Below, one piece after another: positions 27,933 through 31,755 of a stretch of 56,685 nucleotides of DNA. Each line of letters begins with the position of its first letter. Positions within the stretch are counted from its first letter, which is position 1. A program made the translations under genes and the position numbers. Origin of the DNA: Candidatus Omnitrophota bacterium (lineage in GTDB: Bacteria > Omnitrophota > Gorgyraeia > 1-14-0-20-64-10). The notes beneath the pieces are model-generated. The model ran no database searches and had not been told where the DNA came from. It saw nothing but the letters and a program-made list of their open reading frames with translations. Where the stretch lies: NCBI GenBank assembly GCA_023818695.1, contig JAMWCF010000003.1:1-56685 (forward strand). Reading direction: 5' to 3'.

Positions 27933-28688
27933 CTAGGGTTCCTGGATCCTAGAGAGGAACTTTTCGGCCTCGAAGGAGGGTTCCATCACCTTGAGCTGGT
28001 TGACCAGGGTCAGCAGGCGTTGCAGTATGGCCCCGTCCCGTTCCCCTTTGAGCCATCTGGAGTAGAGGTCAAGAAACTCATCCTGGACTTGCTGGTAAGG
28101 GATCTTTTTTTCCAGCTCCCGGACCTGTTCCTGAAGCTCCGCCATTTCGTTTTCATGCAGGCGGTAGCTAAAATGGAAATAAGTCGAGCGCATGGCCGAC
28201 AGGATCGACAGGTATCTTTCGGTCCCGGACGCCAATTTGGTATGGATATCGGCAAGGGCCGTCGGCTTTCTGTAAATCCGGCGGTTGCATTCGCAGGCAT
28301 GGGAGTAATACCTTTTCATTCGTAGAACCTCCGCCTGCTTCTCCTGCCAGATATGGTGAAAAACCCCCAGCGAAACCAGCAGATCGTCGGCGTTGACCTT
28401 ATAAATCCAGTAAGCCCGGTAACGGTCTTCCGTCTTGGAAACCGCCTGAAAAATCTCCTCGTCATAGCGGGAGAGAACCTCTGAAATGGAGGAGAGATAG
28501 ACGGGATCGAGATAGGCGGTCAGCAGACCAGCAAGATAGGCATTGACGTCCTCATCGGTTGAACCCGGCGCCGACTCCAATTTCATGCGCAGCCGGGTCT
28601 TCAAGAGCATTTCCACCAACCGCCCGTAGACCTGCTCCTCCCGCTTACCCTGGATCTCGTAATATCGGGTATTCAGATGAAACGCCAT
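27933..28688 (-). CDS. Hypothetical helical protein (251 aa)
   Basis: Clean ORF; DEDVNAYLAGLL and KVNADDLLVSLG blocks; C-terminal coiled coil. Confidence 0.8.
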   Translation of the reverse strand: MAFHLNTRYYEIQGKREEQVYGRLVEMLLKTRLRMKLESAPGSTDEDVNAYLAGLLTAYLDPVYLSSISEVLSRYDEEIFQAVSKTEDRYRAYWIYKVNADDLLVSLGVFHHIWQEKQAEVLRMKRYYSHACECNRRIYRKPTALADIHTKLASGTERYLSILSAMRSTYFHFSYRLHENEMAELQEQVRELEKKIPYQQVQDEFLDLYSRWLKGERDGAILQRLLTLVNQLKVMEPSFEAEKFLSRIQEP

Positions 28689-28711
28689 ACCGATGGGTCC
28701 GATGCTTATTA

Positions 28712-29059
28712 TTATACAAGTCCCGACCGGTTTCTCTTCGGCTGTGCTTTCGGAACACCTCTGGCCGGCTCCTTGGGCGAAAAGTCAGACGGCGGCAGCA
28801 GTTGCTGCGTCGATTCTACGGATGTATTCTGCGGTGCTGTCGCTTGGGCGTCCGTCGGCGGCACGCCCATCCTCGAGCTCATCAGCAGAACCCCGAGGGC
28901 CATGCCCATCCCCAGCATCAGCCACGGTAAAACTCTATTCATCAGGGTCGGCTGCTTCACTCGGATGGCATGCTTCGGGAACCTCCACGGAACCGTTGGA
29001 TCCCAGGAGCCGGACGGTACCGGAAAATTATCCCCGTAATAATCCGACACCGTGCTCAC
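28712..29059 (-). CDS. Small single-pass membrane protein with a Pro/Gln-rich tail
   Basis: VLPWLMLGMGMALGVLLM TM segment; GTGA overlap with the upstream stop. Confidence 0.7.
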   Translation of the reverse strand: MSTVSDYYGDNFPVPSGSWDPTVPWRFPKHAIRVKQPTLMNRVLPWLMLGMGMALGVLLMSSRMGVPPTDAQATAPQNTSVESTQQLLPPSDFSPKEPARGVPKAQPKRNRSGLV

Positions 29060-29349
29060 GGCTTCAACAGCTCCCCGGCCAAGCGCTTGGCTTCCGGCAG
29101 ACCGGCGGCCAGTTTCTTGACCAACCTTTCCTCCAAATCCTGATCCGACCGCAAACCCTCCCCCGTGACGCCAGACCTGCGCAACAGATCGATCAGCGCC
29201 GAAATCACCCGTGTGCGCGGAAACTTGACCCCGGTTGAGAAAAGGGCGTCCTTGCCCATCTTGTCCAGATAGTCAACCTGCTCCCTGTCCAGGAAGGTGA
29301 CGACCCTGTGGACCTGCTTGCCCTGCTCCATTCTCGCGTTGCTTTTCAT
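29056..29349 (-). CDS. Hypothetical protein, ribbon-helix-helix-like DNA-binding pattern (97 aa)
   Basis: SD GGAGG before ATG 29349; HRVVTFL strand followed by DREQVDYLDK and RTRVISALIDLL helices. Confidence 0.75.
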   Translation of the reverse strand: MKSNARMEQGKQVHRVVTFLDREQVDYLDKMGKDALFSTGVKFPRTRVISALIDLLRRSGVTGEGLRSDQDLEERLVKKLAAGLPEAKRLAGELLKP

Positions 29350-29402
29350 GCGATTCCTCCTCGCTTGCCTCTCCGACTTATTAAATCCGCGAACTTTCCT
29401 CC

Positions 29403-29451
29403 AAAACAAAACGCCTGAAGGCAGCCACCACGTGAAAACCCTCAGGCGTTT
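29403..29451 (-). terminator. Intrinsic terminator, riboswitch expression platform
   Basis: 13-bp stem AAACGCCTGAGGG/CCTTCAGGCGTTT followed by TGTTTT. Confidence 0.8.
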
Positions 29452-29456
29452 CGTCT

Positions 29457-29631
29457 GCACCCTTGGCGGTTCAGCCGCCGAATTCAATCGTAAGTATATG
29501 AAATTTAATTACTTACAACTTGTTGTCGGCCTGTAACTTTGCCCCCCGCTTCAACAGCTTTGCGAAGCGGGAGCCCTGCGGTCTAGGCAGGGGCCCCACC
29601 GTTTCCGGTGGTTTGCCTTTTTCACTGGTGC
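29457..29631 (-). ncRNA. c-di-GMP-I (GEMM-I)-like riboswitch aptamer with two insertions
   Basis: GAAAAAGGCAAAC-CACCG-GAAA-CGGUG-GGGC...GCAAAG-UUACAGGCC...GGCGGCUGAAC-CGCC; P1 GCACC/GGUGC. Confidence 0.8.
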
Positions 29632-29642
29632 CAAATTGTCCT

Positions 29643-31001
29643 TCACCTCAAGCTTGGCACATCTTTTGCCAAATTGTCAAGGGGACCTGTTAAAAAAGGT
29701 GTAGGGCGCACCACCGTCCCGAGGAGGACCTCATCGGTGGCGCCGGTGATCATTATAGGAAGGAGTCTCCCGGCCTCATCAGGGAAGGCCTCGAATCGGA
29801 CCCGAATAAACTGGCTGGTGAACCCCGACCCGTTCTCTTCTACGAGGACCTGCTGTTCGCTGCCGATAAACCCAGCCCTGAACCGGCCTGCTGTTTCGGC
29901 CGCCGTTTGCCTCAAAACCGCCGCGCGTCGCTTGATCTCGTCGCGGGGAACGTGGTTTTTGAAAAAAGAGGCGGAGGTCCCTCCGCGACGGCTGTAGGGG
30001 AAAACGTGAACCTTCAGGAAACGAATTTCGCCGCAGAAGGCCAGGGTCTCCTCGAACTCCCGTCGGCTTTCTCCCGGAAAGCCGACGATCAGATCGGTGG
30101 TGAGCCCTAGGTCCGGCCAAAACTCCCGGACCCGGTCAACCTGGCGCCGATAATCCCCAGTGGTGTAGCCGCGATTCATCCGGGCAAGGACGGCATCGGA
30201 GCCGCTCTGAAGAGACAGGTGCAGATGGTGGCAAATCTTTGACGAGTTTTTCAACGCGTCGATCAGCCGATCGTCCAAATCGCGGGGATCCAGAGAGCTC
30301 AAGCGAACCCGGAATGAACCCGGCAGGCGGTCGATCTCTTCCATCAGATCCCCCAAAGAAGCGCCTATTTCCCATTCCCTGCCCCAGAGGCCGACGGCCA
30401 CACCGGCCACGGTCAGCTCCCGGTACCCCGCCTCCAGAAGGCGCCTGGCCTCATCGAGGATCTCCTTCATTCCCCTGCTCCTGGAGCGGCCCCTGACAAG
30501 AGGAATCTTGCAGAAGGCGCAGGAGCGGTCGCAGCCGTCCTGCACCTTCAGAAAGGCCTTGCTCCTTCCTTCAAAAGAGGAGATCGTAAGGGGGGAGTAG
30601 ACGCGGGTCAGCTCCAGCTCCAGACGGGGCTCTGCAGCCCAGGGATCGATCTCCCGGACCAGTTCGGCGATCCGGTGTTTCTGGCCGGTACCGGCCAGGA
30701 CCTTGACGCCAGGAAGCCCTTTCAACAGATCCGCGTCCCGCTGGACGAGACATCCGGTCACCAGGATCTGGGTTGCCGGCCGCTGTTTGTGGAGGTTCCG
30801 GATGGCGCACATGCATTCATTGTCGGCCGCCTGGGTCACGGTGCAGCTGTTGATCACCACCAGGTCCGCCTCCGGGGAATCCGGCGTCCGCTCCTGGTAG
30901 CCGGCTTCGAGAAGCTGTTCCCGGATCGCCTGGGTCTCGTACTGGTTAACCCGGCATCCGAACGTGATCAGCTGAAAAAATTTGACCGGCCGGTCACTCA
31001 T
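29643..31001 (-). CDS. mtaB: tRNA t6A37 methylthiotransferase
   Basis: TFGCRVNQYE, NSCTVT, QDGCDRSCAFC radical SAM motif, TDLIVGFPGE, HVFPYS. Confidence 0.95.
   Translation of the reverse strand: MSDRPVKFFQLITFGCRVNQYETQAIREQLLEAGYQERTPDSPEADLVVINSCTVTQAADNECMCAIRNLHKQRPATQILVTGCLVQRDADLLKGLPGVKVLAGTGQKHRIAELVREIDPWAAEPRLELELTRVYSPLTISSFEGRSKAFLKVQDGCDRSCAFCKIPLVRGRSRSRGMKEILDEARRLLEAGYRELTVAGVAVGLWGREWEIGASLGDLMEEIDRLPGSFRVRLSSLDPRDLDDRLIDALKNSSKICHHLHLSLQSGSDAVLARMNRGYTTGDYRRQVDRVREFWPDLGLTTDLIVGFPGESRREFEETLAFCGEIRFLKVHVFPYSRRGGTSASFFKNHVPRDEIKRRAAVLRQTAAETAGRFRAGFIGSEQQVLVEENGSGFTSQFIRVRFEAFPDEAGRLLPIMITGATDEVLLGTVVRPTPFLTGPLDNLAKDVPSLR
29654..29672. promoter_or_regulatory. Sigma54-type -24/-12 element, palindromic
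   Basis: TTGGCA-N7-TGCCAA; plus strand TGGCAC-N5-TTGC, minus strand TGGCAA-N5-GTGC; GG-N10-GC on both strands. Confidence 0.55.
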
Positions 31002-31755
31002 TTTCCATTCCGCCCCGCAGGACATAAGAGATCAAACTCAAGGCGGCAACGGCCGCCGTCTCGCAGCGCAGCACCGTCGGCCCCAGGGAAAACCGTCTGG
31101 CCCCGGCGGCATCCGCCTGGGCGAGCTCCTCCGGCGTCAGGTCCCCTTCCGGCCCGATGATCAGCAGGATGCTTGACCGCTCTCTTCCTTTGAGGAGCCC
31201 GGCAAGCGGCTCGTGTGGCCCCTCCACGGCCGCGACCAACGCCAGATCGAATTCCTTGAATCGGCAGACGAGGCGGTCCCACGGAAGCGCCGGATCGATG
31301 AGAGGCAGATGGCTGACCTTCGACTGTTTGGCCGCCTCCACCGCAATCCGGTTCCAGCGCAGAAGCTTCTTCTTCGAGTCCTCCTGGGAGATACGGACAA
31401 CCCCGCGGGCGGTCGTGACCGGGATGATCCGCCGAACCCCGAACTGCGTCGCCTGGTCGATGATCTGATCGATCTTCCCGCTCTGGGGAATCGCCGACGC
31501 CAGGGTGATCCCCCCGGAGAGCGGCGGCAGTCTCTTTTTCTCCTTTATCTCCAGATCGATCCCCGCCCGCGGATCGACGCTCCGGACGCAGGCAACGGCT
31601 TCCGTCCCCGCGCCGTCAAAGCAGGAGACCCAGTCCCCCGGCTTGATGCGAAGCACGCGGGAGAGATGATGGGCCTCCCTCCCGCTTAATCGCAAACGGC
31701 CGTTCCCTTCCCATGCATCGGAGGGGATGTAGCACCGGGCTTTGAGCTGCGGCAT
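30994..31755 (-). CDS. rsmE: 16S rRNA m3U1498 methyltransferase
   Basis: HHLSRVLR, EAAKQS, IGPEGD, LG..VLRCETA. Confidence 0.96.
   Translation of the reverse strand: MPQLKARCYIPSDAWEGNGRLRLSGREAHHLSRVLRIKPGDWVSCFDGAGTEAVACVRSVDPRAGIDLEIKEKKRLPPLSGGITLASAIPQSGKIDQIIDQATQFGVRRIIPVTTARGVVRISQEDSKKKLLRWNRIAVEAAKQSKVSHLPLIDPALPWDRLVCRFKEFDLALVAAVEGPHEPLAGLLKGRERSSILLIIGPEGDLTPEELAQADAAGARRFSLGPTVLRCETAAVAALSLISYVLRGGMENE

What the first reader, a model, noticed from the sequence alone, without database searches (positions are those of the whole stretch)
29457..29631. Double-sized c-di-GMP-I-like riboswitch with a 50-nt two-hairpin insertion next to the ligand pocket
Seen on the minus strand: every GEMM-I landmark, in order. 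These are GAAAAAGGCAAAC, P2 CACCG-GAAA-CGGUG, GGC, GCAAAG, P3 GUU.CAG.GCC pairing with GGC..CUG.AAC, GCC, and P1 GCACC/GGUGC. By eye-alignment to the Vibrio Vc2 aptamer, the pocket triad G20/A47/C92 maps to G29617/A29540/C29466 and the C44-G83 tertiary pair to C29593/G29475. G20 indicates c-di-GMP rather than the cGAMP subclass. Between C44 and G45, normally adjacent, lie 50 nt (29543-29592) forming two hairpins (CCCUGC/GCAGGG and CCCGCUUC/GAAGCGGG). P3 is also extended by an AU-rich 11-bp stem (AGUUGUAAGUA/UACUUACGAUU), and the tetraloop receptor is degenerate. Total about 175 nt versus about 90 nt. Inference: a variant that covariance models may miss or split, possibly with a second input or altered ligand or kinetics.
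Basis: partly seen in the sequence, partly recalled or inferred. Interest (0 to 1): 0.88.

Follow-up and report, generated by a model that had tools for sequence, protein, structure and literature searches.

The report
c-di-GMP riboswitch with two-hairpin insert
This is a genuine c-di-GMP-sensing RNA switch in an uncultured Omnitrophota bacterium whose core carries an extra pair of hairpins beside the ligand pocket, an apparently undescribed variant that recurs across this phylum, that standard annotation misses, and that looks like a tolerated insertion rather than a second sensor.

Summary
Minus strand 29631-29457 holds every GEMM-I (c-di-GMP-I) landmark in order, with G20/A47/C92 at 29617/29540/29466. 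A 50-nt insert (29592-29543) lies exactly between C44 and G45 and folds as two abutting hairpins, and P3 carries an 11-bp AU-rich extension. Rfam misses it at gathering threshold and splits it. A model built from orthologous aptamers recovers it whole (46.4 bits, E about 2e-12). It sits before a terminator whose loop pairs with the 5' strand of P1, and that pairing covaries in relatives, so it is most likely a kinetic OFF switch. It controls a conserved 97-aa protein of unknown function.

The insert is one case of a class. More than 130 Omnitrophota genomes carry an insert of 26-72 nt at the same junction. These inserts fold as two hairpins in 93% of cases against 3.6% of shuffles, mostly with no linker bases, and their sequences and loops are unrelated. 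Among leaders of the same gene the insert comes and goes. In sister genera a 42-nt double-hairpin element also sits in RNase P RNA, tmRNA and in frame in proteins. A second ligand input is therefore unlikely, and a tolerated four-way-junction expansion is the best reading. I found no published description.

The parts
29651..29680 (-). Promoter-like block: TTGACA (29680-29675), an 18-nt spacer, then TG-n-CAAGCT (29659-29651). It lies inside the 3' end of the upstream MiaB/MtaB-like ORF.
   Evidence: Read. The block TTGACA-N18-(TGC)CAnnnT recurs upstream of orthologous aptamers. The consensus scanner did not call it because the -10 hexamer is weak. Inferred, not shown.
29627..29631 (-). P1 5' strand, GCACC.
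   Evidence: Pairs with 29461-29457 in the MFE fold. Aligned to P1 of model R1.
29617..29626 (-). J1/2, AGUGAAAAAG, ending in the G20 equivalent (G29617).
   Evidence: Aligned to the AAAGGCAAAC core of RF03167. The G20 contact is described in PMC5888326.
29596..29616 (-). P2: base pairs G29616-C29541 and C29615-G29542, an AAA bulge, and the hairpin CCACCG-GAAA-CGGUGG (29611-29596) with a GNRA tetraloop.
   Evidence: The same element is present in all orthologues.
29593..29595 (-). GGC, equivalent to G42-A43-C44. C29593 is the C44 equivalent, the partner of the tertiary C44-G83 pair.
   Evidence: Orthologues have GAC or GGC here, directly followed by GCAAAG.
29574..29592 (-). Insert hairpin 1: CCCUGC-CUAGACC-GCAGGG.
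   Evidence: MFE fold. It has no second copy in the genome.
29543..29573 (-). Insert hairpin 2: CUCCCGCUUC-GCAAAGCUGUU-GAAGCGGGGG. This is 10 bp including one U-G pair, and it abuts hairpin 1 and G45 with no linker bases.
   Evidence: MFE fold. It has no second copy in the genome.
29537..29542 (-). GCAAAG: G45 and C46, then the A47 equivalent (A29540).
   Evidence: An A at position 47 excludes the GGC variant.
29468..29538 (-). P3: the proximal stem (29537-29527 with 29480-29469), bulged A29534, and the GG bulge 29476-29475 (G29475 is the G83 equivalent). It also includes the lineage-specific AU-rich 11-bp extension (29520-29510 with 29496-29486).
   Evidence: A homologous extension occurs in L030 and L064.
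29457..29467 (-). GCC with the C92 equivalent (C29466), then the P1 3' strand GGUGC (29461-29457).
29426..29438 (-). Antiterminator strand UUUUCACGUGGUG, in the terminator loop. It pairs with 29630-29619, which is the P1 5' strand plus J1/2.
   Evidence: 12 bp, -15 kcal/mol. It is the unconstrained MFE of the transcript that ends before the terminator's 3' strand. The pairing covaries in orthologues.
29403..29449 (-). Intrinsic terminator: ACGCCUGAGGG (29449-29439) pairs with CCUUCAGGCGU (29421-29411), followed by UUUUGUUUU.
   Evidence: full leader -107.6 kcal/mol, z -6.3. It is conserved in orthologues. The scanner missed it because its loop exceeds the 8-nt limit.
29056..29360 (-). GGAGG ribosome-binding site (29360-29356) and the regulated 97-aa ORF (ATG at 29349, end at 29056). 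It is followed by a 115-aa membrane protein (29059-28712) and a 251-aa helical protein (28688-27933).
   Evidence: Orthologues occur in 18 of 19 same-family genomes. There is no Pfam, NCBIfam or PDB match.

Best explanation
The element is a functional c-di-GMP-I (GEMM-I) riboswitch that works as a transcriptional OFF switch.

Mechanism. While the RNA is being made, the 5' strand of P1 plus J1/2 (29630-29619) has two possible partners. One is the 3' strand of P1. That pairing is stabilised when c-di-GMP fills the pocket formed by G29617, A29540 and C29466. The other is a complementary stretch in the terminator loop (29438-29426). Without ligand the second pairing forms first and blocks the terminator, so the 97-aa gene and its neighbours are transcribed. 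With ligand, P1 holds, the terminator (29449-29403) forms, and transcription stops.

The insert. The 50 extra bases between C44 and G45 fold into two abutting hairpins, which turn the P2 internal loop into a four-way junction. This leaves the P2 helix, its GNRA loop and the pocket geometry intact, so the insert is tolerated. It is most likely a passenger, or at most a modulator of folding, and not a second sensor.

Origin. The insert most probably comes from a short palindromic double-hairpin DNA insertion of the kind that is still recognisable in sister genera.

Shown here: the anatomy, homology to GEMM-I, the class of inserts, their lability, and covariation of the switching helix. Inferred: ligand binding, the direction of regulation, neutrality of the insert, and its origin.
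For: Core and family:
- Rfam clan hit over 29461-29626.
- Full-length hit with the orthologue-derived model R1, 46.4 bits, E 1.7e-12.
- Orthologous leaders without the insert score 57-79 bits against Rfam, at or above the gathering score.
- L030 has the same P3 extension but no P2 insert. It scores 61.7 bits against 30.8 for the window, which serves as a natural 'insert-deleted' control.

Pocket: G, A and C at positions 20, 47 and 92. Their roles are described in PMC5888326 and PMC6140456.

Switch:
- Terminator fold, z -6.3.
- The antiterminator is the unconstrained MFE of the transcript cut before the terminator's 3' strand. The full-length RNA prefers P1 plus terminator, -107.6 against -96.2 kcal/mol.
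- The alternative helix covaries with P1's 5' strand in orthologues: CACCAC/GUGGUG, UUCCAG/CUGGA, UACCAG/CUGGUA, AUCCCG/CGGGA, GGCCAC/GUGGAC.

Insert class:
- At least 119 matches with a 35-65 nt gap at this junction among GTDB species representatives, nearly all Omnitrophota.
- 76 of 82 inserts fold as exactly two abutting hairpins, against 3.6% of shuffles. The median MFE z is -5.
- Inserts of 26-35 nt follow the same rule, and no class of single-hairpin inserts was found.
- 79 of 91 inserts have no linker bases.
- 11 of 151 evenly sampled genomes of the phylum match the strict pattern, and the reversed-pattern control matches none.

Dispensability:
- Most orthologous leaders lack the insert.
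- Insert presence needs 13 changes on the gene tree. The shuffled mean is 14.2, and at least 6 changes are forced by well-supported branches. Well-supported sister pairs differ in state.
- Loops are not conserved.

Origin:
- A 42-nt double-hairpin module occurs at three different sites of orthologous aptamers.
- The same module occurs in RNase P RNA, in tmRNA and next to a tRNA.
- It appears as an exact in-frame insertion of 14-15 codons in three protein genes, relative to the orthologues in the window's own genome.
Against: - No ligand binding or termination assay exists. All functional statements are computational.
- The window's insert is single-copy in its own genome, which is 61% complete, and it is unrelated in sequence to the UCCGCCA module. 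Its origin from a mobile element is therefore an inference.
- L152's insert is also single-copy in its genome.
- The strict two-hairpin, zero-linker rule, and minimal versions capped by GNRA loops, would equally fit an RNA domain kept by selection for a function.
- The gene tree rests on about 94 columns and is poorly resolved, so the count of gains and losses is rough.
- The full-length RNA favours the terminator even without ligand, so regulation has to be kinetic. That was not tested.
Confidence: 0.6

Rival explanations
1. The two hairpins are a functional accessory domain of a distinct four-way-junction subclass of c-di-GMP-I aptamers. They would brace the fold, set the folding or ligand-binding time window during transcription, or serve as a protein-binding platform, and selection would maintain them for that reason.
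For: - The two-hairpin architecture is strict, with no linker bases in 79 of 91 cases. It spans insert sizes of 26-72 nt and unrelated sequences.
- Minimal versions have 4-5 bp stems and GNRA or GAAA loops.
- The class is present in several classes and families of the phylum.
- The window's insert and L152's insert are single-copy in their genomes, so they are not active repeats.
- The base of hairpin 1 is partly conserved: the third pair is C-G in 68 of 91 cases.
Against: - Orthologous leaders of the same gene with the same terminator and antiterminator mostly lack the insert, and well-supported sister leaders differ in state.
- Loops vary freely. Only 11 of 91 first hairpins carry a GNRA loop, and the window's first hairpin has a 7-nt loop.
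- The same kind of module sits at other aptamer positions and in unrelated RNAs and proteins.
Confidence: 0.25
2. The insert is a second sensor, so that the riboswitch integrates c-di-GMP with another ligand or has a changed ligand specificity.
For: - The insert emerges next to the pocket, between C44 and G45.
- The loop of hairpin 2 repeats the GCAAAG motif, here and in L044.
Against: - No nucleotide of either loop is conserved across about 90 inserts, and loop lengths range from 3 to 13 nt.
- GCAAAG occurs in the hairpin 2 loop in only 2 of the 12 orthologous inserts.
- The alternative register lacks P3 complementarity (read).
- The pocket positions are the canonical G, A and C.
Confidence: 0.03
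3. The aptamer has been disabled by the insertion. On this reading it is a decaying riboswitch, and the leader now acts only as a constitutive terminator or attenuator.
For: The Rfam score is below threshold. The full-length RNA favours the terminator without ligand.
Against: - All core and pocket nucleotides, P1, the GNRA loop and the antiterminator complementarity are intact.
- The two insert hairpins are perfect helices, not decayed sequence.
- The same architecture recurs in more than 130 genomes, which is not expected of dead elements.
Confidence: 0.07

Closest known systems
c-di-GMP-I (GEMM-I) riboswitch, type 1, e.g. Vibrio cholerae Vc2 (Rfam RF01051, clan CL00126)
   Same: - The P1/P2/P3 architecture.
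- The AAAGGCAAAC and GCAAAG junction sequences.
- A GNRA loop on P2.
- G20, A47 and C92.
- The GAC/GGC bulge carrying C44.
- A terminator-type expression platform.
- Four canonical copies in the same genome.
   Different: - 50 nt forming two hairpins are inserted between C44 and G45, which are adjacent in all described examples. P2 therefore becomes a four-way junction.
- P3 is extended by an 11-bp AU-rich stem.
- Total length is about 175 nt against about 90 nt.
- It scores below Rfam's gathering thresholds.
c-di-GMP-I-GGC variant (Rfam RF03167)
   Same: It is the best-scoring Rfam model, both for the window and for its orthologues.
   Different: In the Rfam consensus printed, the model has G at position 47 (GCGAAG). 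The window and its orthologues have A there (GCAAAG). The hit name should not be taken as a statement about ligand specificity.
Rickettsia palindromic elements and similar intragenic palindromic repeats
   Same: In sister genera, a 42-nt double-hairpin element occurs at a few to about nine loci per genome. It sits in frame in protein genes, in tmRNA and RNase P RNA genes, and in GEMM-I aptamers. For comparison, R. bellii has 526 such elements, 53 of them in protein genes and one in the tmRNA gene (PMC1458961).
   Different: - The window's own insert is single-copy and unrelated in sequence.
- The element is far shorter than Rickettsia palindromic elements and low in copy number.
- No transposase was linked to it here.
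Tandem c-di-GMP riboswitches (e.g. Bc3-5 of Bacillus thuringiensis, PMC4759541)
   Same: The leader is longer than normal and contains a second GCAAAG motif.
   Different: Only one set of core elements is present. The extra sequence consists of two plain hairpins inside P2, not a second aptamer.

Membership tests
c-di-GMP-I (GEMM-I), Rfam RF01051 / clan CL00126 | A covariance-model score at or above the curated gathering score. | tested here: not met
   - RF03167 scores 30.8 bits against a gathering score of 59.
- RF01051 splits the site into 25.3 and 15.4 bits against a gathering score of 35.
- The default scan reports nothing.
- The shortfall is due to the inserts. Insert-free orthologues score 57-79 bits, and the orthologue-derived model R1 gives 46.4 bits, E 1.7e-12, end to end.
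c-di-GMP-I (GEMM-I), Rfam RF01051 / clan CL00126 | A three-helix architecture (P1, P2, P3) with conserved J1/2 (AAAGGCAAAC) and J2/3 (GCAAAG). | tested here: met
c-di-GMP-I (GEMM-I), Rfam RF01051 / clan CL00126 | Pocket nucleotides G20, A47 and C92. | tested here: met
   G29617, A29540 and C29466, by alignment to the Rfam consensus and to R1. Their roles are described in PMC5888326 and PMC6140456.
c-di-GMP-I (GEMM-I), Rfam RF01051 / clan CL00126 | Type-1 tertiary contacts: the GNRA tetraloop on P2 docking into P3, and the C44-G83 pair. | tested here: inconclusive
   The GAAA loop (29605-29602), C29593, and the invariant bulged G (29475) are present at the aligned positions, as in canonical orthologues. 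Docking itself cannot be tested by sequence.
c-di-GMP-I (GEMM-I), Rfam RF01051 / clan CL00126 | C44 and G45 are adjacent, so that P2 is a single hairpin with an internal loop. | tested here: not met
   50 nt (29592-29543) forming two hairpins lie between them. This is the variant feature.
c-di-GMP-I (GEMM-I), Rfam RF01051 / clan CL00126 | Selective binding of c-di-GMP and ligand-dependent gene control. | not testable with these tools
   Only the computational platform is available: a terminator plus a covarying antiterminator.
c-di-GMP-I-GGC variant (RF03167) | G at position 47 (GCGAAG). | tested here: not met
   The window has A29540 (GCAAAG), and so do all orthologues.
3',3'-cGAMP riboswitch (GEMM-Ib) | A at position 20. 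| tested here: not met
   G29617. The role of position 20 is described in PMC6140456.
Palindromic insertion element (RPE-, MITE- or REPIN-like) | Several similar copies in the same genome. | tested here: not met
   - For the window's insert, blastn-short and stem patterns find no second copy in the 0.94-Mb assembly, which is 61% complete.
- Model R2 finds none of its module there either.
- For the UCCGCCA module in sister genera the feature is met.
Tandem riboswitch | Two complete aptamer cores in one leader. | tested here: not met
   There is one core only. The extra sequence is two simple hairpins.

The most novel reading that the evidence does not exclude
The C44|G45 double hairpin defines a separate, selectively maintained four-way-junction subclass of c-di-GMP-I riboswitches in Omnitrophota. 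The extra coaxial stack beside the pocket would change how the sensor works, through its folding pathway, its ligand on and off rates and hence the kinetic window of the OFF switch, or through recruitment of a protein. On this reading a domain born from a selfish palindromic insertion has been co-opted by a riboswitch.
Probability: 0.2. Interest if true: 0.75.

Novelty: new variant of a known kind. Interest (0 to 1): 0.55.

Why it matters
- **Annotation.** A whole set of c-di-GMP riboswitches in a large uncultured phylum is invisible to, or split by, standard Rfam annotation. c-di-GMP regulons there are therefore under-counted. A dedicated covariance model would fix this.
- **RNA structure.** Nature has inserted helices of 26-72 nt at the backbone link between C44 and G45, one step from the ligand pocket, more than a hundred times, and essentially always as two abutting hairpins. 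That is a natural experiment on which expansions an aptamer tolerates. It also marks a ready-made site for engineering or for cryo-EM scaffolding.
- **Evolution.** The link to a 42-nt palindromic element that also sits in RNase P RNA, in tmRNA and in frame in proteins shows how selfish insertions can expand structured RNAs.

Tried and rejected
1. The default Rfam scan gave no riboswitch hit. Only the permissive scan showed the clan match.
2. I rejected filing the element under the best Rfam hit, the GGC variant, because position 47 is A.
3. I rejected the tandem-aptamer reading and the alternative register using the second GCAAAG. The motif occurs in the hairpin 2 loop of only 2 of 12 orthologous inserts, and the alternative register lacks P3 complementarity.
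4. I tested whether the window's insert is a repeat in its own genome. It has no second copy, and there is no other insert-bearing GEMM-I in the assembly.
5. I tested whether unrelated inserts elsewhere are repeats. The result was mixed: L152's insert is single-copy, while part of L170's first hairpin has about five more copies.
6. The promoter/terminator scanner found neither signal.
7. The regulated protein stayed unidentified. There were no hits in Pfam, NCBIfam or PDB sequences. The AlphaFold model has mean pLDDT 67, and no fold match has E below 4. 'RHH-like' remains only an impression from the sequence.
8. The shuffle z-scores for the antiterminator were noisy, and more distant orthologues use other expression platforms. 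The covariation claim is therefore limited to the window's own family.
9. Two pattern calls failed on syntax.
11. Running the Rfam model on the sequence with 29543-29592 removed was not possible, because the tool takes no edited sequences and Infernal is not in the Python box. L030 served as a natural control instead.
12. Literature searches for this architecture found nothing. The library lacks most subscription journals, so a prior description cannot be excluded.

Full report
**Observation.** On the minus strand, 29631-29457 carries every GEMM-I landmark in the canonical order.
- P1: GCACC/GGUGC, 29631-29627 with 29461-29457.
- J1/2: AGUGAAAAAG, ending in G29617 (G20).
- The G-C/C-G base of P2.
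- The P2 hairpin CCACCG-GAAA-CGGUGG, 29611-29596.
- The GGC bulge, 29595-29593 (C44 at 29593).
- GCAAAG, 29542-29537 (A47 at 29540).
- P3, with its bulged A and GG bulge.
- GCC (C92 at 29466).

Between C29593 and G29542 lie 50 nt that fold into two hairpins, CCCUGC/GCAGGG and CUCCCGCUUC/GAAGCGGGGG. P3 carries an 11-bp AU-rich extension. The MFE fold of the 175-nt RNA reproduces all of this (-73.8 kcal/mol, z -5.2). With the downstream terminator included, z is -6.3.

**Detection by Rfam.** RF01051 splits it into 25.3- and 15.4-bit pieces, although the same genome has four canonical GEMM-I aptamers at 41-71 bits. A permissive scan gives a full-length clan hit of 30.8 bits against a gathering score of 59, with 60 nt left unaligned in P2. 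That hit is to the GGC variant model. The name is misleading, because position 47 here is A.

**Orthologues.** The window comes from a Candidatus Omnitrophota MAG (record titles). The 97-aa ORF downstream (29349-29056) has orthologues in 18 of 19 genomes of the same family and in further families of the class. Nearly every orthologue has a GEMM-I aptamer in its leader.

Most of these aptamers are of canonical size and score 57-79 bits with Rfam. L030 shares the window's P3 extension but lacks the P2 insert, and it scores 61.7 bits. It therefore acts as a natural insert-deleted control: the insert alone costs about 30 bits. A covariance model built from eleven canonical-size orthologues (R1) finds the window aptamer end to end at 46.4 bits, E 1.7e-12.

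**The insert is one case of a class.** Twelve orthologous leaders carry an insert at exactly the same junction, GG(G/A)C | GCAAAG, and each insert is two hairpins of different sequence. They are the window, L064, L032, L093, L044, L131, L118, L138, L034, L043, L129 and L086. They include orthologues with only 45-50% protein identity.

These were overwhelmingly Omnitrophota. Many are labelled 'uncultured Planctomycetia', as are the window's own family members.
- *Folding of the sampled inserts.* Of 82 inserts, 76 (93%) fold as exactly two abutting hairpins filling the gap, against 3.6% of shuffled sequences. The median MFE z is -5.
- *False positives.* The hits from other phyla were canonical aptamers or unstructured chance matches.
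- *Pattern scan, 6-34 nt gap.* This gave only 50 hits. Of the 13 Omnitrophota hits, 11 were again two hairpins, some as small as 26 nt with GNRA-type loops. No class of single-hairpin inserts exists.
- *Anatomy.* 79 of 91 inserts have no linker base at any of the three positions, which makes a perfect four-way junction, and the window's insert fits this. Loop lengths (3-13 nt) and loop sequences are not conserved.
- *Prevalence.* In an even sample of 151 genomes of the phylum, 11 match the strict pattern, from several classes and families. The reversed-pattern control matches none. This is a lower bound, because the pattern demands one particular P2 length.

**Lability and other sites.** Other orthologous leaders carry a two-hairpin insert in the 5' strand of P2 (L072, L035, L034, L137, L140) or in J1/2 (L043), and some carry inserts at two sites. 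On a tree of the regulated protein, insert presence needs 13 changes. The shuffled mean is 14.2, and at least 6 changes are forced by well-supported branches. Well-supported sister pairs differ in state, for example L039 without and L043 with inserts, from one genus. The tree rests on few columns, so the numbers are rough. Even so, the insert is clearly not required to regulate this gene.

**A palindromic element in sister genera.** The 5'-side inserts are copies of a 42-nt module, UCCGCCAC-N5-GUGGCGGA followed by YCCGCCAA-N6-UGGCGGA.
- A model of this module (R2) finds none in the window's genome or in seven relatives. It finds about 4-9 loci in others.
- The hosts include an RNase P RNA gene (in the opposite orientation), a tmRNA gene, a tRNA flank, several GEMM-I aptamers and long ORFs.
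- In three ORFs the module is an exact in-frame insertion of 14-15 codons relative to the orthologue in the window's genome.

This behaviour matches Rickettsia palindromic elements: R. bellii has 53 in protein genes and one in tmRNA (PMC1458961). Some C44|G45 inserts elsewhere are of this sequence type (L118, L210, L162, L168, L169, L197). The window's insert is not. It is single-copy in its genome, as is L152's in its genome, while part of L170's first hairpin is a repeat.

**Why two hairpins (inference).** Two abutting helices inserted into one strand of a helix give a four-way junction. In such a junction the original helix can stay coaxially stacked, so the P2 GNRA loop and the pocket keep their geometry. 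One hairpin, or unstructured sequence, would not allow this. The rule can therefore reflect tolerance alone, or a function of the extra stack. The data do not separate the two readings.

**Mechanism.** The terminator is ACGCCUGAGGG/CCUUCAGGCGU followed by UUUUGUUUU (29449-29403). Its loop contains UUUUCACGUGGUG (29438-29426), which is complementary to CACCAGUGAAAA (29630-29619), the 5' strand of P1 plus J1/2.
- For the transcript that ends before the terminator's 3' strand, this antiterminator is the unconstrained MFE.
- The full-length RNA prefers P1 plus terminator, -107.6 against -96.2 kcal/mol.
- In the window's family the loop segment covaries with the P1 5' strand.

This supports a kinetic OFF switch in which c-di-GMP locks P1 and allows termination. 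With G at position 20, the ligand is expected to be c-di-GMP and not cGAMP (PMC5888326, PMC6140456). No binding or transcription data exist.

**Regulated genes.** The 97-aa protein is highly conserved (74% mean column identity). It has no Pfam, NCBIfam or PDB relative. Its AlphaFold model is of modest confidence (pLDDT 67, four helices) and has no fold match. It is followed by a 115-aa membrane protein, a 251-aa helical protein and a CvpA-like gene. What c-di-GMP controls here is unknown.

**Comparison and novelty.** The element works like, and descends from, type-1 GEMM-I. It fails two membership features: the curated score, and the adjacency of C44 and G45. I found no description of this architecture in the held literature, and Rfam 15 has no model for it. 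Most subscription journals are not in the library, so prior description cannot be excluded. Earlier notes of this scan report the same architecture in other Omnitrophota genomes. They agree with this analysis but are not independent evidence.

I rate the finding a new variant of a known kind and of moderate interest. It is a real and widespread blind spot in annotation and a neat natural experiment in aptamer expansion, but the evidence points away from a second sensory input.

Noticed in passing
L263 (G001:C34), L264 (G015:C89), L266/L055 (G016:C21), L276, L278, L285: A 42-nt double-hairpin palindromic element (UCCGCCAC-N5-GUGGCGGA followed by YCCGCCAA-N6-UGGCGGA) occurs in sister genera. It sits inside tmRNA and RNase P RNA genes, next to a tRNA, and as an exact in-frame insertion of 14-15 codons in three protein genes (for example SATRRGGSANPFGG). 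There are about 4-9 loci in some genomes and none in others, including the window's own. It is analogous to Rickettsia palindromic elements.
   Followed up: yes
window 27933-29349 (minus strand): The riboswitch-controlled genes are a highly conserved 97-aa protein, a 115-aa single-pass membrane protein overlapping it by 4 nt, and a 251-aa helical protein with a weak BAR-like hit. The 97-aa protein has no family or fold match. Its HRVVTFLDRxQVDYLDKLGKD segment looks like a ribbon-helix-helix start, but that is unproven. None of the three is a known c-di-GMP target.
   Followed up: partly
window 29651-29680 (minus strand): A block TTGACA-N18-TGnCAnnnT, conserved upstream of the orthologous aptamers, lies inside the 3' end of the MiaB/MtaB-like radical-SAM ORF (29643-31025).
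   Followed up: partly
G070:C5:2719-2946 and G008:C11:35337 / C12:36606: One Omnitrophota genome has two insert-bearing aptamers 154 nt apart, with near-identical inserts. This may be a tandem arrangement. Another genome has two near-identical insert-bearing aptamers on different contigs.
   Followed up: no
L170 (G062:C7:85172-85237): The first hairpin of this genome's C44|G45 insert contains an inner hairpin (GCUCCAAAACUUUUGUGUUGGAGC) with about five further copies in the genome at 84-94% identity. A repeat appears to be nested inside the riboswitch insert.
   Followed up: partly
L029-L047 (orthologous leaders): Rfam's clan competition assigns these A47 aptamers to RF03167 (c-di-GMP-I-GGC) and not to RF01051. 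Automated annotation would therefore label canonical c-di-GMP pockets as the GGC variant.
   Followed up: partly
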